Assembly (NCBI GenBank): GCA_965204575.1
Contig: OZ241993.1
Location: 1,752,664 to 1,816,663 of the forward strand
From: an uncultured candidatus Porisulfidus sp.
GTDB taxonomy: Bacteria; Pseudomonadota; Gammaproteobacteria; Poriferisulfidales; Poriferisulfidaceae
Reading direction: 5' to 3'
DNA length: 64,000 nt
Part shown: piece after piece, positions 23,967 through 64,000 of the stretch
How the letters are laid out: each line of letters starts with the position of its first letter
Numbering within the stretch: the stretch's first letter is position 1
Notes under the pieces: generated by a model
Told to the model about the DNA's origin: nothing
Database searches by the model: none
Seen by the model: the letters and a program-made list of their open reading frames with translations, nothing else
Position numbers and translations under genes: made by a program

Positions 23967-24562
23967 GCGGGAGCGTCCTCGGGCATCTCGCCGATCAGGA
24001 TTCGCGTATCGCTGACGAAACGGTACGGCGGCACCCGCAGGTTGGCGTTGGCCGGCACGTGGTCGTACACGCGGCCTGACAGGTCGAACCGGGAACCGTG
24101 GCAGGCGCAGAAAAATCCACCTTGCCACTCGGGGCCCAAGTCCTCCGGAGCCGCGTCGGGACGGTAGGTCGGGTTGCAGCCGAGGTGCGTGCAGATGCCG
24201 ACCAGCACCAGGAACTCCGGATTCAGCGAGCGGTGGGAATTCCGCGCGAATTCTGGCTGTTGCTCTTGCTCGGAGTGCGGATCGCGGAGGTAACTGGCTT
24301 CAGCTTCCAGCGCCGCCACCATTTCGGGTGTACGACGAATAATCCAGACTGGCTGCTTGCGCCAGATCAGGTCGATCTTCTGACCCCATTCCATCTGCCC
24401 GATATCCACTTCGATCGGGGCGCCTGCCGTACGGGCGCGAGCGCTCGGAGACATGGATGCGATGAACGGCCACATGGCCACTGCGGCACCCGTTCCACCC
24501 ACTAGGGCTGTGCTGCCGGTTAAAAACCTGCGGCGGCCCACATCAACTGTGTCATCTGGCAT
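23963..24562 (-). CDS. petA: Rieske iron-sulfur subunit of bc1 complex
   Basis: Tat signal RRRFL, CTHLGC and CACHGS boxes. Confidence 0.97.
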   Translation of the reverse strand: MPDDTVDVGRRRFLTGSTALVGGTGAAVAMWPFIASMSPSARARTAGAPIEVDIGQMEWGQKIDLIWRKQPVWIIRRTPEMVAALEAEASYLRDPHSEQEQQPEFARNSHRSLNPEFLVLVGICTHLGCNPTYRPDAAPEDLGPEWQGGFFCACHGSRFDLSGRVYDHVPANANLRVPPYRFVSDTRILIGEMPEDAPA

Positions 24563-24585
24563 GTGCTGGGAATCTCCGGGCGATC

Positions 24586-24625
24586 AAAAAACACAGCCGC
24601 CACCCTTTTCGCGGGTCGACCGTGT
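24586..24625 (-). terminator. Terminator-like hairpin with U-tract upstream of petA
   Basis: Minus strand ACACGGTCG-ACCC-loop-GGGT-GG-CGGCTGTGT followed by a T run. Confidence 0.5.
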
Positions 24626-24700
24626 CCACTCCATCTGCGGCGGCAAATTTTAACATATGCGGCTTGGCGTCTTGGCGTCAGCGAAATGCGATACCTCTTC

Positions 24701-25459
24701 TCAAGCCGGGTTCGAAATGTCGATGAACTGGTGGTGCAACCCGAATTTTTCCTCAAGATGCCGGCCGACGGCCTGCACGCCGTAACGCTCGGTCGCGTGA
24801 TGGCCGCAGGCAAAATAATGCACCCCGCATTCGCGGGCCGTATGCACGGTCTGTTCGGAAATCTCCCCGCTGATGAAGGCGTCCAGTCCCAGGCGGGCCG
24901 CCTGTTCAATGAACTGCTGCCCGGCACCGGTGCACCATCCAACCGTGGCGATCGGGTCTTTTCCCTCGGGGCCGGCCCATACCACCGGGTGCTGCAACCG
25001 CCCCTCCAGTTCGCCCGCGAATTCCTGTGCTGATTGCGGTTCTTTCAACCGTCCAACCCTTCCGGTCTCCGGGGCGCCGGGCTCCAGAAGGCCGGTGACA
25101 TCCAGATCCAGGCATTCCGCCAGCTGGACGTTGTTTCCGAACTTCTCATGCGCGTCCAGCGGCAGATGGTAGGCGAACAAGTTGATGTCCGAAGCCAGCA
25201 GTGTGCGAAGCCGCCGCGCTTTCATCCCGGTGACCCTCGCATCTTCGTTTCGCCAGAAATACCCGTGATGCACGAGCAAGGCATCGGCACCCTGTTCCTG
25301 AGCGGCTTCGATCAACGCCTGGCTTGCGGTCACGCCCGAGATCAGCGCCTCGATCCGGTCGCGGCCCTCGACCTGCAACCCGTTGGGGCAATAGTCCGAG
25401 AATTCTGAAGGCTGGAGCAACTCGTCCAGGTAAGCGGAAAGATCCGTTCGCTCAACCAT
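24701..25459 (-). CDS. Nif3-like dinuclear metal center protein (YbgI/DUF34)
   Basis: DYCPNGLQVEG, VHHG, YHLPLDAH and GHHATE motifs; start ATG 25459. Confidence 0.93.
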   Translation of the reverse strand: MVERTDLSAYLDELLQPSEFSDYCPNGLQVEGRDRIEALISGVTASQALIEAAQEQGADALLVHHGYFWRNEDARVTGMKARRLRTLLASDINLFAYHLPLDAHEKFGNNVQLAECLDLDVTGLLEPGAPETGRVGRLKEPQSAQEFAGELEGRLQHPVVWAGPEGKDPIATVGWCTGAGQQFIEQAARLGLDAFISGEISEQTVHTARECGVHYFACGHHATERYGVQAVGRHLEEKFGLHHQFIDISNPA

Positions 25460-26772
25460 CACTTCGAGTCGCTTCGCCAACGGGCCGAAGCGGCATGCGC
25501 ACCCAAACCCTCCGCCTTCGCCAGACACTCGGCCAAGCCGGCAAGGTCCGCGGCACCGGCCTGCGACAGGCGAATGGTGCTGCTGCGCTTCTGGAAGTCG
25601 TAGACCCCCAGCGGCGACGCGAAGCGGGAAGCCCGCATGGTCGGCAGCACGTGGTTGGGTCCGGCGCAGTAATCGCCCATCACCTCCGGGCTGTGCGCGC
25701 CCAAGAAGATCGCGCCGGCATGATGGATTCGATTCATCACCGCATCCGGTTCCTCCAAGGCCAGTTGCAGGTGTTCGGGCGCCAGTCGGTCAACCAGTTC
25801 CGCGGCCTGCTCCAAATCGTCGGTCTGGATCAGCGCGCCGTTGGCCGCCAGGGATTCGCGGATGATTTTTGCGCGCGGCAGCCCTTCCAATTGCGCGGCC
25901 AACGCGTCCGCGACCGCATTGATGTGATCCAAGTCCGGGCTCAGGAGAATCGCCTGCGCCTGTTCGTCGTGCTCCGCCTGCGCCATCAGGTCCGCCGCCA
26001 GCCATCGCGGGTCCGCGCTGCCGTCGCTCACGACCACCACTTCCGAGGGCCCGGCCACCATGTCGATCCCGACCCTGCCGAACACCTGCCGCTTGGCCTC
26101 GGCCACCCAGAGGTTTCCAGGCCCGACGATCTTGTCGACTGCCGGGATGGTTTCCGTCCCCAGCGCCAGCGCGGCGACGGCCTGAGCGCCTCCCAGCGCC
26201 CATCCGCGATCAATGCCAGCCACATGCGCCGCCGCCAGCACGACCGGGTTGACCTGCCCATCCGGTATCGGGCTGACCATCAGGATTTCTCCCACCCCGG
26301 CGACTCTCGCCGGGATCGCGTTCATCAGTACCGAAGACGGATACGCTGCAGTCCCTCCGGGGACATAGACGCCGACACGCTGCAGGGCATTGACCCGCTG
26401 CCCGAGCCGAGAGCCGTGTTCGTCCTCGAACTCGAACGATTCCAGCTTCTGCCGCTGCGCGTAATCCCGGATTCGATCGGCCGCGGCCAGCAGCGCATCG
26501 CGCAGGGGTTCGTCCAGCGCCTCGAACGCGGCCTGAAAATCGGCCGCCTGCCAAAGCAGCGACGCCACCGAGCCGGCTTCGTGTCCGTCGTATTGCCGGG
26601 TGTATTCGAGCAGGGCGGCATCGCCGCGCGTGCGGATCTCTTCGATGATGGCCGCGACTGCTTCGGCCTGTTCCGGGCGCGAATCCTGTGCCCTGCCGTC
26701 GATCAGCGCCTGAAATTCACCCTCAAATCCCGGCGCTCCGGTCGACAGAATGCGCGGGAAAGAAGTGCTCAT
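25459..26772 (-). CDS. hisD: Histidinol dehydrogenase
   Basis: [28 protein letters not shown] and [12 protein letters not shown] motifs. Confidence 0.97.
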
Positions 26773-60477: not shown

Positions 60478-61158
60478 TCAATCGTCTCCGCCAAATGCGG
60501 CCAGCAGATGCAGCAGGCTGGTGAACAGGTTGTACAGCGACACGTACAGGGTCACGGTCGCCATGATGTAGTTGGTTTCGCCGCCGTGGATGATGGCGCT
60601 GGTCTGGTACAGGATCAGGCCGCACATCAGCAGGACGAACAGGGCCGAGATGCCGAGCATCGCGCCGGACACCTCCATGCCGAACATCGAGGCGACCACC
60701 AGGCCCAGGCCGGACAGGAACGCGACCAGGATGCCGACCATCAGCATGCCGCCCATGAAGCTGAAGTCGCGGCGCGTGGTCAGCACGTAGCCGGACAGCA
60801 CCAGGAAGATGCCGCCGGTCATGCCGAGGGCCGTGGCCACCAGCTGCGCGCCATTGTGGACTGCGATCAGGTAGTAATTGATGATCGGGCCCAAGGTAAT
60901 CCCCATGAAGCCGGTCAGGGCGAACACGCACAGCAGGCCCCAGCCGCTGTCGCGGAACCGGCTGGTCAGGAATAGCAGTCCGAAGTAGCCGACCAGGGTC
61001 AAGACCAGACCCGGATACGGCCAGTTGAAGACCATCGAGAGTCCCGCCGTGAACGCGCTGAACAGCAGCGTCATGGCAAGCAGCGCGTAGGTGTTGCGCA
61101 GGACCCGGTTCATGGCGAGGGTCGGCGCCGTAGCGGAAATCATGCGAGGCTGGCTCAT
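60478..61158 (-). CDS. yccA: Bax inhibitor-1/YccA family membrane protein
   Basis: VLRNTY.LL, DFSFMG and GGETNYI.AT..LYVS.YNLF motifs; start ATG 61158. Confidence 0.93.
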   Translation of the reverse strand: MSQPRMISATAPTLAMNRVLRNTYALLAMTLLFSAFTAGLSMVFNWPYPGLVLTLVGYFGLLFLTSRFRDSGWGLLCVFALTGFMGITLGPIINYYLIAVHNGAQLVATALGMTGGIFLVLSGYVLTTRRDFSFMGGMLMVGILVAFLSGLGLVVASMFGMEVSGAMLGISALFVLLMCGLILYQTSAIIHGGETNYIMATVTLYVSLYNLFTSLLHLLAAFGGDD

Positions 61159-61280
61159 TCGAATATCCTCCTGGAAAACATTAAGACTCAGTGATGGGAT
61201 GGTTCGCCCCACTTCCTAAATCAGCCTTGGGCGGACACAATGAGGTTACCACTAACCATTGCGAAAGCAGGACGAACCCT

Positions 61281-62327
61281 ATGAAAGCTACTATACCTGA
61301 CTCCCGGATCGCTTATTTGGGCATTGATCTGGCCAAGCATGTCTTTTACGCGTGCGGCATGACCGAGGCGGGCCGGGTGGTGCTGGAGAAGCGATTTACG
61401 CGCGCCCGACTGGAAAGGTTTACGGAGCAGTTGCCGCCGTGCCGGGTCGGGCTGGAGGCCTGCGGCAGCGCGCACCACTGGGCGCGCCGGCTGATCGGGC
61501 AAGGGCACGATGCCCGGCTGATCTCGCCGCACTTCGTCGCGCCCTTCGTGAAGTCGAACAAGAATGATGCGCGGGACGCGGAGGCGATCTGCGAGGCGGT
61601 CAGCCGGCCGACGATGCGCTTCGTCCCGGTGCGGTCGGAGTCGGAACAGGCGATCCAGCACTGGCACCGGGCGCGGCAGCGGGTGGTGCGGAGCCGCACC
61701 CGCCTGGTCAACCAGTTGCGGGCGTTCCTGTACGAATACGGACAGGTACTCCCGCAGGGCGTCAAGGCGTTCCGGCGTCGGGTTCCGGAGCTTCTGGAAG
61801 ACGGCGAGAACGGCCTGCTGCCGGAGGTTCGCGAGATGCTGGCGGACGGTTACGAGGAGTTGCTGGGGCTGGATGCGCGGGAGGAGCAATACCGCGCCCG
61901 GATCCAGGTGCATGCGGCTTCAGAGGAAGCCTGCGAGCGGCTGATGGCGATCCCGGGAGTCGGGGTGCTATGCGCCAGCGCTCTGGTCATGAAGTTCCGG
62001 GACGGGGGCGACTTCCGAAACGGTCGAGAGGCGGCGGCCAGTGTCGGCCTGGTGCCGCGGCAGCACAGTACGGGCGGACAGGTCCGGCTGGGCGGCATCA
62101 GCAAGCGGGGAGACCGGTATCTGCGCACTCTGATGATCCAAGGTGCCAGCTCGGTCGTGCGGCTGGCGGAACGGAAAGAGGACGGCCGCAGCCGTTGGGC
62201 CTCTGACGTGAAGCGGCGTCGCCATCGCAATATCGCGGTGGTGGCACTGGCCAACAAGAACATCCGCATCGCCTGGGCTCTGCTCAGGAGCGGCGAAGCT
62301 TATCGGGAGGAAGTCTCTATGGCCTGA
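61281..62327 (+). CDS. IS110 family DEDD transposase/recombinase
   Basis: GIDLAK (D), LEACG (E), KNDARDA (DD), C-terminal GLVPRQHSTGG with conserved Ser, GDRYLR. Confidence 0.96.
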   Translation: MKATIPDSRIAYLGIDLAKHVFYACGMTEAGRVVLEKRFTRARLERFTEQLPPCRVGLEACGSAHHWARRLIGQGHDARLISPHFVAPFVKSNKNDARDAEAICEAVSRPTMRFVPVRSESEQAIQHWHRARQRVVRSRTRLVNQLRAFLYEYGQVLPQGVKAFRRRVPELLEDGENGLLPEVREMLADGYEELLGLDAREEQYRARIQVHAASEEACERLMAIPGVGVLCASALVMKFRDGGDFRNGREAAASVGLVPRQHSTGGQVRLGGISKRGDRYLRTLMIQGASSVVRLAERKEDGRSRWASDVKRRRHRNIAVVALANKNIRIAWALLRSGEAYREEVSMA

Positions 62328-62399
62328 GGCTTCCCCCTGAATCCCGGCGGCCACTGGCTGCCGATCGGTTGCAGGGAAGAAGCAGAACATGGCGAAACA

Positions 62400-62540
62400 G
62401 GTCGGACCGACGCGTCGGGAACCTGGTTGATAAACAGGCCTTCGAGGTCATCTCAGTGATGAGGCCGGCGCGTGCGGAACCCATGGGGGCCCGGGAGCTA
62501 CGTTCTCCCGTCAAGAGGCCGGATATATGTTCGCACCCGA
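62400..62540 (+). ncRNA. Putative bridge/seekRNA of the IS1111-type element (boundaries approximate)
   Basis: Two stem/internal-loop modules; loop segments TTGATAAAC and CTCAGT match the target site, ATATATG and CCCAT match the circle junction. Confidence 0.75.
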
Positions 62541-62595
62541 TCGATCGTCAAGGATGCTTCCCACTTGCAGGGAGGGGGCGAACCATATATTTATC

Positions 62596-62624
62596 AAATT
62601 GGGCCTCTGCCGGGGTTTCTCAAG
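62596..62624 (-). promoter_or_regulatory. Sigma32-like promoter, probably the original yccA promoter
   Basis: Minus strand CTTGAG-N14-GCCCAATTT, same layout as the grpE and dnaK promoters. Confidence 0.5.
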
Positions 62625-62674
62625 GTTGTCTTTGTCGGTCAAGTAGCCGGAATCGGAAGCAACCCGCGGATTGA

Positions 62675-63823
62675 TCAAGGCAAATCCAACTCCCGACAGA
62701 ATGCCTGGAACGGCAGGACACGCGTTTCGTTCGAAACATGGTCCCGCCGGCCTAAATGAACCTGGTAGAACGCGGGGATGTCGGTCCTCTGGCGAAAGTA
62801 TTCGATCGCCTTGCTGGGTGATTTCTCTCCCGACTTGCACTCGACGGCGAACAATGGTTTTCGATCCTGAAGTACGACAAAATCAACTTCGCGCAGGTCG
62901 GTGTCACGCAGGAACCTGAGTTCCATCCGGTAGCCTTCCGTATCTTCCAGGTGATGGCAGTATTTAAGCAGGTGGCAGGCGACCAGATTCTCGAAACGTT
63001 CGCCCTTGTCCCGTGTCTGGGACCAGTCCCAGAAATAGAGCTTGGTTTCTTTCTTGACGGCGCGAATGCGAGGGGCACCAAAAGGCGGGATGCGGAAACA
63101 GACATACAGATTCTCCAGTATCCTCAACCAGCGGTCGACAGTCGCGTGTGCAACCTGCAGGTCCTCGCTCAGGTTTTTGATCGACAGGGGTGACCCGACC
63201 CGACCCGGCAACGCATCCAGCAGGAGCTCAATCAACGCGATCTGCCGGATATTTTCGAGACTGCGGATATCTTCATACACCACCCGCGACAATCTCTCTC
63301 TCTGCCATCGCCGCCATTTCCGTACCTCCCCGGAGAGGAGCGGCTCGGGAAATCCCCCGAACTGCATCAGTGCCTCCAGGTCGTCCTTCGACGCCGTGGC
63401 ATTCAGTTCGCTCAGGGAAAGAGGATGGAGGCGGTAGTGGTGGTAGCGTCCCTGAAGGGAATCCCCGCCCTTGCGGTAGTGATCCAACCGCGCGGATCCG
63501 GTCACGAGGAAGGAGATCTGGTCTCCGCGGGTATCGTAGAGCCCCTTGACGAGGTTTCGCCACCGAGGGTACTTGTGGATCTCATCCAAGACCAGGAAGC
63601 TCTCGTTGGCGGGCAAATTGCCGCGCAGCAGTTCCGGCCGGACCCTCGGGTCGTCCCAATTCAGGTAGCCGGGGTGTCGCCTTTTGTCCGCCTTGAGAAG
63701 ACTCAACGCCAAAGTCGTCTTGCCGACCTGCCTCGGCCCTCCCAGGAATACCATCTTGCTCTGCAGATCGGCCTTGATCGAGCCCGCAAGGTAGCGCAGA
63801 AGCGGTTTTGAATCGTCTGCCAT
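62675..63823 (-). CDS. AAA+ ATPase with DUF4143 C-terminal domain
   Basis: GPRQVGKTT, LDEIH, VTGS, SLQGRY, GGFPE, KLYFWD, FEN.V and EVDFV......VECK motifs; start ATG 63823. Confidence 0.9.
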   Translation of the reverse strand: MADDSKPLLRYLAGSIKADLQSKMVFLGGPRQVGKTTLALSLLKADKRRHPGYLNWDDPRVRPELLRGNLPANESFLVLDEIHKYPRWRNLVKGLYDTRGDQISFLVTGSARLDHYRKGGDSLQGRYHHYRLHPLSLSELNATASKDDLEALMQFGGFPEPLLSGEVRKWRRWQRERLSRVVYEDIRSLENIRQIALIELLLDALPGRVGSPLSIKNLSEDLQVAHATVDRWLRILENLYVCFRIPPFGAPRIRAVKKETKLYFWDWSQTRDKGERFENLVACHLLKYCHHLEDTEGYRMELRFLRDTDLREVDFVVLQDRKPLFAVECKSGEKSPSKAIEYFRQRTDIPAFYQVHLGRRDHVSNETRVLPFQAFCRELDLP

Positions 63824-64000
63824 GAAAGATAAACTCCGGCGCACTCACTTCATGAGTAAAATCATTATAACTGTAAAATACTCATGAGCAAAATAGAGTA
63901 TATGTTAAATCGGTCATAGATGTTTCCGCATACGGGGCTTGCGGCGGAACGCCTGGCTGTGGCACAATCGGCATCCCGACCCGCCCGGCGGGTTTTCCAA

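What the first reader, a model, noticed from the sequence alone, without database searches (positions are those of the whole stretch)
62328..62589. Readable bridge/seekRNA: guide segments match this element's own target and donor junction
Seen: removing 61192-62589 rebuilds the target ...AAGACTCAG|TTTATCAAA... In the right non-coding end, stem CGCGTCGG (62411-18) / CCGGCGCG (62465-72) encloses TTGATAAAC (62427-35, exact reverse complement of GTTTATCAA), a small GGCC-TTCGA-GGTC hairpin, and CTCAGT (62452-57, target top strand). The two guides overlap on a GT core. A second stem GTGCGGA (62472-78) / TTCGCAC (62530-36) encloses CCCAT (62480-84, reverse complement of left-end ATGGG), hairpin CGGGAG/CTCCCG, and ATATATG (62523-29, matching the circle junction CCATATA|TGATGGG). 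Known: IS110/IS1111 recombinases are RNA-guided. Inference: an intact, programmable recombinase with predicted target CTCAGTTTATCAA. The system class is known; this instance and its specificity may be new.
Basis: partly seen in the sequence, partly recalled or inferred. Interest (0 to 1): 0.8.

Follow-up and report, generated by a model that had tools for sequence, protein, structure and literature searches.

The report
Intact RNA-guided IS1111-type insertion sequence
A 1.4-kb jumping gene carries a small structured RNA whose loops spell out both the DNA site it inserts into and its own joined ends; it is a well-supported new example of the bridge/seekRNA recombinases described in 2024, not a new kind of system.

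Summary
61192-62589 is a complete IS1111-type element: a 348-aa DEDD transposase, 12-bp subterminal inverted repeats and a 262-nt 3' non-coding end. A related genome has the uninterrupted site, so the ends are exact apart from one shared T.

The genome has a second copy that differs by 1 nt. It sits in an unrelated locus with the same right flank and 4 of 5 left-flank bases. No unoccupied site with 0-1 mismatch to the 13-nt target remains in the genome.

Twelve relatives at 74-77% identity share the ends but sit in other sites. Those blocks follow each copy's own flanks (0 of 20,000 permutations reach the observed match).

A covariance model of 62396-62546 finds the same two-loop RNA after the transposase gene in 61 of 63 relatives' loci and in IS4321. 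Thirty of 35 pairs covary. The second loop follows the right-end/left-end junction across 22 distinct variants.

- Stem 2 is only 3 consensus pairs.
- The 6-mer alone is at chance level.
- Only the T is shared between donor and target.

No RNA data exist. Verdict: a new member of a known kind, with moderate interest.

The parts
61192..62589 (+). Whole insertion sequence, 1398 bp. The boundary is ambiguous by 1 nt because T61192 equals T62590.
   Evidence: Empty site in G002. A second copy differing at 1 nt lies at G000:C1:1241924-1243321. Twelve relatives share the same ends in other flanks.
61187..61191 (+). Left half of the target (CTCAG), read by the left target guide.
   Evidence: Copy 2 has CTGAG here.
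62590..62597 (+). Right half of the target (TTTATCAA), read by the right target guide.
   Evidence: The same 9 nt (TTTATCAAA) flank copy 1, copy 2 and a right junction in G005.
61192..61198 (+). Outer 7 nt of the left end (TGATGGG). This is the right half of the donor in the circle junction.
   Evidence: Lies outside the subterminal repeat. Covaries with the 5' strand of loop 2 across relatives.
61199..61210 (+). Left subterminal inverted repeat, ATGGTTCGCCCC.
61281..62327 (+). Transposase gene, 348 aa, starting at ATG 61281. The listed GTG start at 61191 spans the junction and is an artefact.
   Evidence: PF01548 residues 13-153 and PF02371 residues 218-296. NF033542 positions 1-342 of 343. 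GLVPRQHSTG motif in the translation.
62346..62362 (+). Hairpin just after the stop codon; role unknown.
   Evidence: RNAalifold pairs at columns 21-27 with 31-37. Pair 26/32 is GC in 6, CG in 4 and UG in 1 sequence.
62400..62542 (+). Structured core of the bridge/long seekRNA: a basal stem (62400-05 with 62537-42) closing two arms.
   Evidence: Model R1 scores 164 bits here and has no other match in the window. Structure mapped. Covariation.
62410..62473 (+). Target-binding arm. Stems are 62410-14/62469-73, 62416-17/62466-67 and 62422-24/62462-64. They enclose an internal loop with an apical hairpin at 62437-41/62445-49.
   Evidence: All 10 stem pairs and 4 of 4 hairpin pairs show changes on both sides. 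The same stems are recovered without the model.
62427..62435 (+). Right target guide (TTGATAAAC), complementary to the top strand at G(-1) and +1 to +8 of the target.
   Evidence: 9 of 9 matches. Lies in the hypervariable block. The block follows each copy's own flanks in the family.
62452..62457 (+). Left target guide (CTCAGT), complementary to the bottom strand at -5 to +1.
   Evidence: 6 of 6 at copy 1 and 5 of 6 at copy 2. In 40 distinct relatives the equivalent 5 nt match the left flank at 4.15 of 5, against 1.34 for cross pairings.
62458..62461 (+). GATG directly after the left target guide, equal to left-end bases +2 to +5. It may be a handshake-like extension; the support is weak.
   Evidence: Own match 2.2 of 4 against 1.8 for cross pairings in 40 relatives; 0 of 20,000 permutations reach the own total, but the effect is small.
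62474..62534 (+). Donor-binding arm. The base is 62474-76/62532-34, the inner stem 62488-92/62515-20 and the hairpin 62493-97/62505-09.
   Evidence: The inner stems covary (helices 8 and 9). The base stem hardly varies.
62480..62486 (+). Right donor guide (CCCATGG). CCCAT pairs with left-end ATGGG; at +2 there is a G-G mismatch and at +1 a G-T wobble.
   Evidence: Relatives with CCCATCG pair one base further. Covaries with the left end across groups.
62523..62529 (+). Left donor guide (ATATATG), identical to the last 5 nt of the right end plus the first 2 of the left end.
   Evidence: 7 of 7 here. In 22 distinct variants the first 6 positions follow the junction almost without exception.
62565..62589 (+). 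-35 hexamer TTGCAG (62565-70), a 17-nt spacer, and TA of a -10 hexamer that TGAT (61192-95) completes once the ends are joined. This is an inferred junction promoter.
   Evidence: Read. The stretch is invariant or nearly so in 11 of 11 family members. No sigma-70-like site is found in the linear element. Junction promoters are reported for this family in PMC11187229 (sections 12, 14).
62575..62586 (+). Right subterminal inverted repeat, GGGGCGAACCAT, followed by 3 outer nt (ATA).

Best explanation
61192-62589 is an intact IS1111-type insertion sequence that chooses its insertion site by RNA-DNA base pairing.

Its 3' non-coding end encodes a structured RNA of about 145 nt (core 62400-62542), probably co-transcribed with the transposase gene and then processed.

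Arm 1 is a target-binding loop. [quoted passage not shown] The two overlap on G(-1)T(+1). Together they specify CTCAG|TTTATCAA.

Arm 2 is a donor-binding loop. Its two strands (62480-86 and 62523-29) read the junction formed when the right and left ends are joined in an excised circle. That joint also assembles a promoter, TTGCAG-17 nt-TATGAT.

The DEDD transposase then exchanges strands at the shared T without duplicating the target.

Shown here:
- the ends and the empty site
- two or three independent insertions at the specified sequence
- family-wide covariation of the stems, of the target guides with the flanks, and of loop 2 with the ends

Inferred:
- that the RNA is made
- that it binds the transposase
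- that loop 2 pairs with donor DNA
- the junction promoter

My odds are about 0.9 that target choice is RNA-guided and about 0.65 that loop 2 acts as a donor guide.
For: **Protein.** NF033542 'IS110 family RNA-guided transposase' scores 338.8 bits against a cutoff of 140. PF01548 and PF02371 both match. The C-terminal domain matches the IS621 and ISCro4 transposases in the PDB at E about 1e-5.

**Ends.** The empty site is present in G002.

**Copies.** A second copy differs at 1 of 1398 nt, a synonymous change. It lies in an unrelated locus with the same 9-nt right flank and 4 of 5 left-flank bases. A right junction in G005 has the same right flank in a third context. The genome holds no unoccupied site with 0-1 mismatch to the 13-mer. 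It has 17 sites with 2 mismatches, against 13 for the reversed control.

**Natural reprogramming.**
- Fourteen full-length copies carry 9 different guide sets. Guide columns are 43% identical and the remaining 133 columns 88%.
- Thirteen copies were scored; L043 was dropped because its left flank is cut by a contig end.
- Own guide-flank matches average 7.6 of 11 and 3.8 of 7, against 3.7 and 1.9 for cross pairings.
- No permutation out of 20,000 reaches the own total.

**Fold.**
- Model R1 matches 61 of 63 loci searched, all after the transposase gene on its strand, and also IS4321 and a Klebsiella plasmid element.
- 92% of cells are paired, against 32-42% when partners are slid. Thirty of 35 pairs change on both sides.
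- A MAFFT+RNAalifold run on 26 diverse sequences, not fitted to the model, recovers the same arm-1 stems and the arm-2 inner stem. Sixteen of its 18 pairs are compensatory.

**Wider family.**
- The left guide matches the left flank at 4.15 of 5, against 1.34 for cross pairings.
- Its last base matches the first base of the left end in 38 of 40 distinct variants.

**Loop 2.** Across 22 distinct variants, own matches to the end junction average 11.1 of 14 against 9.3 for cross pairings. No permutation out of 20,000 reaches the own total.

**Literature.** The guide order and overlap are as published for IS1111 seekRNAs (PMC11187229 section 9).
Against: - No RNA evidence exists. No RNA run holds the stretch, and the runs that were laid are contigs. 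Rfam has no family for the RNA.
- The 6-nt left guide is at chance level on its own (838 of 2000 shuffles). Copy 2 mismatches it at -3.
- In this element the right donor guide forms only 5 Watson-Crick pairs.
- The base stem of arm 2 barely varies (helix 7).
- The gain of own over cross pairing for loop 2 is modest, because the ends are conserved.
- For ISEc11 the short seekRNA, which holds only the target loop, was sufficient for transposition. The role of the long form was left open (PMC11187229 section 14). That argues against a necessary donor loop.
- Some relatives fit the guide rule poorly or only after a 1-2 nt shift of register (L047, L055, L051 left guide; L067, L066, the second L116 hit and the truncated L132).
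- Related copies are not independent, so the permutation counts overstate significance.
- Alignment A3 is fitted to the model.
- The MFE of the single sequence is only z = -2.15.
Confidence: 0.87

Rival explanations
1. This is a target-seeking seekRNA only. Arm 1 guides target choice, and also excision by reading the flanks. Arm 2 is a protein-binding or processing scaffold, and the transposase recognises the ends through the subterminal repeats rather than through RNA pairing.
For: For ISEc11 the short 82-nt seekRNA was sufficient, and the role of the long form is stated to be open (PMC11187229 section 14). In this element the right donor guide makes only 5 Watson-Crick pairs. The base stem of arm 2 hardly varies.
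Against: Both strands of the arm-2 loop change together with the right-end/left-end junction across 22 distinct variants. Examples are ATATA|T with ATATAT, ATATA|C with ATATAC, ATACA|T with ATACAT, ATATA|A with ATATAA, and GGG/GAG/GGA in the left end with CCC/CTC/TCC in the loop. The 3' strand is identical to the right end, not complementary to it, so an RNA-RNA pairing does not explain the pattern. Durrant et al. predict donor-complementary loops in IS1111 elements (PMC11208160, passages seen).
Confidence: 0.22
2. The element is a fixed relic. The guide matches are real history, but the copy no longer moves, because the RNA or the protein is not made or not active.
For: There are no expression data. 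There are only two copies, and no free site with 0-1 mismatch is left in the genome.
Against: The two copies differ at 1 of 1398 nt, and the change is synonymous. The reading frame covers the whole NCBIfam profile. The site is empty in G002 and occupied in G005. All RNA stems and both repeats are intact.
Confidence: 0.1
3. The matches between the non-coding end and the target are coincidence, and site choice is made by the protein alone.
For: The 6-mer is at chance level (838 of 2000 shuffles). The fold of the single sequence is only z = -2.15.
Against: The 9-mer occurs in 9 of 2000 shuffles and both matches together in 2 of 2000. The guide blocks follow the flanks in 13 family copies and in 40 distinct distant variants. 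The transposases of the family stay similar while the targets differ.
Confidence: 0.02

Closest known systems
IS1111-family seekRNA elements ISEc11, ISPa11, ISKpn4 and ISPst6 (Siddiquee et al. 2024, PMC11187229; outline and sections 6, 9, 12, 13, 14 read)
   Same: - The transposase is about 340 aa, with a DEDD domain and PF02371.
- Subterminal inverted repeats are present.
- The long non-coding end lies downstream of the transposase gene.
- The segment complementary to the top strand lies 5' of the one complementary to the bottom strand, and they overlap in the target.
- There is no target duplication.
- A promoter is formed at the joined ends.
- The size of the structured core (143 nt) is near the reported long form (145-170 nt).
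   Different: - The target (CTCAG|TTTATCAA) and the host lineage differ.
- Sequence relatedness to those four elements was not measured, because their sequences were not at hand.
- No RNA or activity data exist for this element.
- The comparative data here point to a donor-reading second loop, whose role those authors left open.
IS621 bridge RNA and recombinase (Durrant et al. 2024, PMC11208160, passages only; PDB 8wt6)
   Same: - The RNA has two loops, each with two guide segments that read opposite strands on either side of the crossover.
- The guides overlap at the core.
- The donor is the right-end/left-end junction.
- The C-terminal domain of the protein is homologous (E 4.2e-5).
   Different: - The RNA lies at the 3' end rather than the 5' end.
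- The order of the guides within the loop is reversed.
- The subterminal repeats are long (12 bp).
- Only one base (T) is visibly shared by donor and target, rather than a CT dinucleotide.
- Protein similarity is remote.
IS4321/IS5075, classical IS1111-family members
   Same: The transposase is 41% identical over 95% of its length. Model R1 finds the same RNA after the IS4321 transposase gene (54.2 bits, E 3e-12). Its loop strands match that copy's own flanks beside merR.
   Different: These elements have another target. [quoted passage not shown] Their guide sequences differ, and they are found on enterobacterial plasmids.

Membership tests
IS1111 group of the IS110 family | DEDD (RuvC-like) N-terminal domain plus the PF02371 C-terminal domain | tested here: met
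   PF01548 at 2.5e-19 (profile positions 1-153 of 155) and PF02371 at 2.1e-20. NF033542 at 338.8 bits against a cutoff of 140.
IS1111 group of the IS110 family | Transposase of 330-350 aa with a GL-P----S(t)G motif (PMC11187229 section 6) | tested here: met
   348 aa from ATG 61281. GLVPRQHSTG is present in the translation.
IS1111 group of the IS110 family | Subterminal inverted repeats of 7-17 bp with short outer extensions | tested here: met
   12-bp repeat at 61199-61210 and 62575-62586, with 7 outer nt on the left and 3 on the right.
IS1111 group of the IS110 family | The longer non-coding region lies downstream of the transposase gene | tested here: met
   89 nt upstream against 262 nt downstream.
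IS1111 group of the IS110 family | Site-specific insertion without target duplication | tested here: met
   The empty site in G002 equals the two flanks joined. Three junctions share the right flank.
seekRNA / bridge RNA | A conserved structured RNA in the non-coding end, supported by covariation | tested here: met
seekRNA / bridge RNA | Loop segments complementary to both strands of the target, overlapping at the insertion point, and changing with the target among relatives | tested here: met
seekRNA / bridge RNA | A second loop complementary to the donor (joined ends) | tested here: met
   7 of 7 and 5 of 7 matches here. Covariation across 22 variants. This is a sequence-level result only.
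seekRNA / bridge RNA | The RNA is expressed and bound by the transposase, and guide changes redirect insertion | not testable with these tools
   No RNA run is listed. This needs bench work.
seekRNA / bridge RNA | A circular intermediate with a junction promoter | tested here: inconclusive
   The hexamers TTGCAG, 17 nt and TA|TGAT can be read and are conserved. The contigs laid show no circle junction, and contigs cannot show rare forms.
Any Rfam family | A match at the gathering score | tested here: not met
   The only match at E up to 1 in 60900-63000 is an unrelated lncRNA model, at 11.8 bits against a gathering score of 55, and it lies outside the element.

The most novel reading that the evidence does not exclude
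The target loop may reprogramme itself. Its 3' strand reads as a contiguous copy of the left flank-left end junction: the left guide followed by TGATG of the left end. After an off-target insertion, the new flank could therefore be copied from that junction into the loop.

That would account for 9 guide sets among 14 copies whose scaffolds are 88% identical, with change concentrated in blocks.

A less bold version has odds of about 0.5. In it, loop 2 of the IS1111 long seekRNA is a true donor guide that uses a single-base core, and the TGATG stretch is a handshake guide. That would answer the role of the long seekRNA, which the 2024 paper left open.
Probability: 0.04. Interest if true: 0.75.

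Novelty: new member of a known kind. Interest (0 to 1): 0.3.

Why it matters
The system class was described in 2024, and bridge RNAs have been predicted computationally in most IS1111 elements. The existence of this one is therefore expected.

Its value is as a clean natural series. One bacterial genus holds at least nine guide variants on a near-identical scaffold, each sitting in a site that its own guides spell out. Empty sites are available for comparison.

That gives a ready set of matched recombinase-RNA-target triples for testing an IS1111-type system. It also gives comparative support for a donor-reading second loop, a role that the experimental IS1111 paper left open.

The recombinase is compact (348 aa) and the RNA core is about 145 nt.

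Tried and rejected
- **Rfam**: no family matches the RNA.
- **RNA evidence**: no RNA holder is listed for the stretch. The three runs laid are contigs from one study. They only show the two copies collapsed at 61190-62598, with no circle junction and no empty-site form.
- **Promoter and terminator scan** of the linear element: 0 of each, so no internal start for the RNA can be named.
the consensus keeps only 3 pairs.
- **Long-range pairings** of 62370-75 and 62379-83 with 62557-71, predicted by RNAalifold on the whole end: they are mostly invariant, so neither supported nor refuted, and I do not claim them.
- **GATG extension as a handshake guide**: the effect is small (2.2 against 1.8 of 4).
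- **Fine-scale tracking of left flanks by left guides** among the G013 copies that share one right guide: poor (3-6 of 8). This gives no support to the self-reprogramming idea.
- **** failed on a frame error and was corrected.
- **Supplementary figures** of PMC11187229, which hold the folds of the long seekRNAs, could not be seen. They may already show the second loop.

Full report
**1. What is in the sequence**

The element spans 61192-62589. It holds one long reading frame. The ORF list starts it at a GTG that straddles the left junction (61191, 378 aa). The real start is most likely ATG 61281, which gives 348 aa.

That protein matches PF01548 (DEDD_Tnp_IS110, 2.5e-19) and PF02371 (2.1e-20). 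It also matches NCBIfam NF033542, 'IS110 family RNA-guided transposase', over profile positions 1-342 of 343 at 338.8 bits against a cutoff of 140. Its C-terminal part matches the solved IS621 and ISCro4 transposases at E about 1e-5.

A 12-bp inverted repeat lies at 61199-61210 and 62575-62586. Seven outer bases lie to its left and three to its right. The upstream non-coding part is 89 nt and the downstream part 262 nt.

**2. The ends and the target**

- The left flank was sought in 40 relatives plus the genome itself. Read at the junction, G002 (flank 94% identical) has the two flanks of the window as one uninterrupted stretch.
- G011, G008 and G013 have diverged versions of the same empty site.
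- G005 has a closely related element at the same place. It is 94% identical over the 54 nt before its contig ends.
- The ends are therefore exact apart from one base, because the T at 61192 equals the T at 62590.
- The genome holds a second copy at C1:1241924-1243321. It differs at one base, window position 61839, C to T. From this reads as CTG to TTG, both leucine.
- That copy lies in an unrelated locus. Its right flank begins with the same nine bases, and its left flank ends CTGAG instead of CTCAG.
- A right junction on another G005 contig has the same nine-base right flank in a third context.
- A search of the genome for the 13-mer with up to two mismatches found no site with zero or one mismatch. 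It found 17 sites with two, against 13 for the reversed control. Both good sites are occupied.

**3. Is the match more than chance?**

Against the 26-nt rebuilt site, 2000 dinucleotide shuffles of the 262-nt end gave these counts:

| Match | Shuffles reaching it |
|---|---|
| 9-nt bottom-strand match | 9 of 2000 |
| 6-nt top-strand match | 838 of 2000 |
| Both together | 2 of 2000 |

The 9-mer carries the signal in this single element. The 6-mer means nothing on its own.

**4. Natural reprogramming in the genus**

The 3' end of the element was searched in the same 41 genomes. Nine of them hold a match, at 27 places. Fourteen places are full-length copies: the two here and twelve at 73.6-77.1% identity in G007, G009, G012 and G013. 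All share the same outer ends, but they sit in different flanks.

Their non-coding ends align almost without gaps. Mean pairwise identity is 0.43 in those 18 columns and 0.88 in the other 133.

In the register fixed by the window's element, the two blocks were compared with each copy's own flanks.
- The reverse complement of the 5' block matches the last two bases of the left flank plus the first nine of the right flank at 9 of 11 in eight of the thirteen copies scored, and at 6-7 of 11 in four more.
- The 3' block matches the left flank plus the first base after it at 4-6 of 8 in most copies.
- L043 was dropped because a contig end cuts its left flank.
- L055 fits poorly in this register (3 of 11), and L047 scores 6 of 11; both fit better after a shift of one or two bases.

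| Block | Own flanks | Cross pairings |
|---|---|---|
| 5' block (of 11) | 7.6 | 3.7 |
| 3' block (of 7) | 3.8 | 1.9 |

No permutation of flanks among copies, out of 20,000, reached the own total of 149 (mean 86.6, sd 11.1). Several copies share guides and similar targets, so they are not independent.

**5. The fold**

Its energy is only moderately better than shuffles (z = -2.15, with 4 of 200 shuffles folding as well).

RNAalifold on eleven distinct family members gives a basal stem closing two arms. In window coordinates:
- basal stem: 62400-05 with 62537-42
- arm 1 stems: 62410-14/62469-73, 62416-17/62466-67 and 62422-24/62462-64
- arm 1 internal loop: its strands hold the two variable blocks, around a hairpin at 62437-41/62445-49
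- arm 2: base 62474-76/62532-34, inner stem 62488-92/62515-20 and hairpin 62493-97/62505-09

Only three pairs of its stem 2 survive in the consensus.

**6. Wider family**

A protein scan of the genome collection gave 566 confirmed relatives among 600 candidate stretches, and the best 80 loci were kept. The closest named records are titled as uncultured Candidatus Porisulfidus and Chromatiales genomes.

I searched 61 of those 80 loci, leaving out further copies from the same genomes, plus two loci of a second element family in this genome. The model was a covariance model built from window 62396-62546 and ten relatives.
- Sixty-one of the 63 sources have a match, 64 matches in all. L080 has none, and L113 has none because its locus ends just after the gene.
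- Relatives with only 42-55% protein identity are among the matches.
- In the loci the matches lie downstream of the transposase gene on its strand. Three loci (L067, L094, L116) hold a second match.
- On the model-fitted alignment, 92.0% of cells are paired, against 32-42% when partners are slid by one to three columns.
- Thirty of 35 pairs change on both sides.
- No shuffle out of 500 reaches any of the five measures.

That alignment leans towards the model. I therefore also ran MAFFT plus RNAalifold on 26 diverse sequences. It recovers the arm 1 stems, the hairpin and the arm 2 inner stem, and 16 of its 18 pairs show compensatory change.

The model also finds the RNA behind the IS4321 transposase gene on a Salmonella plasmid (54.2 bits) and in a Klebsiella plasmid element (51.8 bits). 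In the window it has a single match, at 62395-62546 with 164 bits. The IS4321 loop strands match that copy's own flanks, with a one-base shift on the left. The window's transposase is 41% identical to IS4321/IS5075.

**7. Do the loops read DNA across the wider family?**

For 60 plus-strand matches I located the subterminal repeat. Five had none of 10 nt or more. Ten more were skipped because the repeat found did not have the family's ATGG/CCAT outer motif. I assumed the window's geometry of seven outer bases on the left and three on the right.

*Left target guide (40 distinct variants).*
- The five bases of the arm 1 3' strand match the five bases left of the element at 4.15 of 5, against 1.34 for cross pairings.
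- The next base matches the first base of the left end in 38 of 40. It varies between T, C and A.
- No permutation out of 20,000 reaches the own total.
- Two of the 40 are outliers that I kept in the count: a second match in L116 and the truncated L132.

*Arm 2 (22 distinct variants from 45 loci).*
- The 3' strand follows the last five bases of the right end plus the first base of the left end almost exactly.
- The 5' strand follows the left end.
- Own matches average 11.1 of 14, against 9.3 for cross pairings.
- No permutation out of 20,000 reaches the own total.
- The margin is modest because the ends are conserved.

**8. Mechanism**

The pattern is that of an IS1111-type seekRNA/bridge RNA.

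PMC11187229 (sections 9, 12 and 14 read) reports for IS1111 members that the segment complementary to the top strand lies 5' of the one complementary to the bottom strand. It also reports that the two overlap in the target, and that the order is reversed in IS110-type elements. This element has the IS1111 order.

PMC11208160 (passages only) defines left and right target and donor guides for IS621. It states that covariance models predict a bridge RNA in the right end of 93.0% of IS1111 elements.

Joining the ends would create TTGCAG, 17 nt and TATGAT. This is read, and the stretch is conserved in 11 of 11 relatives. No promoter-like site exists in the linear element. The RNA is therefore probably made with the transposase message from the circle and then processed, as the seekRNA authors propose. 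This step is inferred.

One point differs from IS621. Donor and target visibly share only the single T. The base before it is A in the donor and G, A or T in the targets.

**9. What remains open**

- There is no evidence that the RNA is made. No RNA run is listed.
- For ISEc11 the short RNA with the target loop alone sufficed, and the role of the long form was left open (section 14). The donor-loop function rests on comparative evidence only. I put it at about 0.65, against about 0.9 for RNA-guided target choice.
- The supplementary figures of that paper, which show folds of the long forms, could not be seen.

**10. Verdict**

The system belongs to a kind described in 2024 and predicted in most IS1111 elements. 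This is a new member of a known kind, with a new specificity.

Its main use is as a natural series of matched recombinase, RNA and target variants in one genus. Interest is 0.3.

Noticed in passing
G000:C1 about 24,400-25,600 (+) and about 713,400-714,900 (-); loci L003-L006: This is a second, more distant IS1111-like element family in the same genome, present in two copies. It is about 70% identical to this element over two patches of the transposase gene. Model R1 finds the same two-loop RNA in it at 61.9 bits (L004 1974-2137). Its guides and target were not worked out.
   Followed up: partly
window 60478-61155 (-) and 62675-63844 (-): Copy 1 sits 36 nt upstream of the start codon of a Bax1-I family membrane protein gene. 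It lies between that gene and an upstream AAA_14/DUF4143 ATPase gene on the same strand. In genomes with the empty site the two genes are about 120 nt apart, so the insertion may cut the downstream gene off from its upstream signals.
   Followed up: no
L002 1440-1500 (G000:C1 about 1,241,860-1,241,923): Copy 2 sits 9 nt upstream of an ATG that opens a reading frame on the minus strand. Both insertions therefore lie just ahead of the start of a gene on the opposite strand. The gene was not identified.
   Followed up: no
L053/L054 (G013:C1:1413619-1415020): A full-length family member directly abuts a 3' part (element positions 753-1398) of another copy, so its right flank is internal transposase-gene sequence. 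This may be an insertion into, or a rearrangement with, a sibling copy.
   Followed up: no
L012 (G005:C24, contig end) and L044 (G005:C11:1-60): A near-identical element (94-96% over the short stretches seen) occupies the same Bax1-I site in another species of the genus. It also occupies a further site with the same nine-base right flank. The assembly breaks at the element, so its guides could not be read.
   Followed up: partly
window 62346-62362: A covarying hairpin lies 19 nt after the transposase stop codon and upstream of the modelled RNA core. It could be a 5' stem of a longer RNA form or a processing signal.
   Followed up: no
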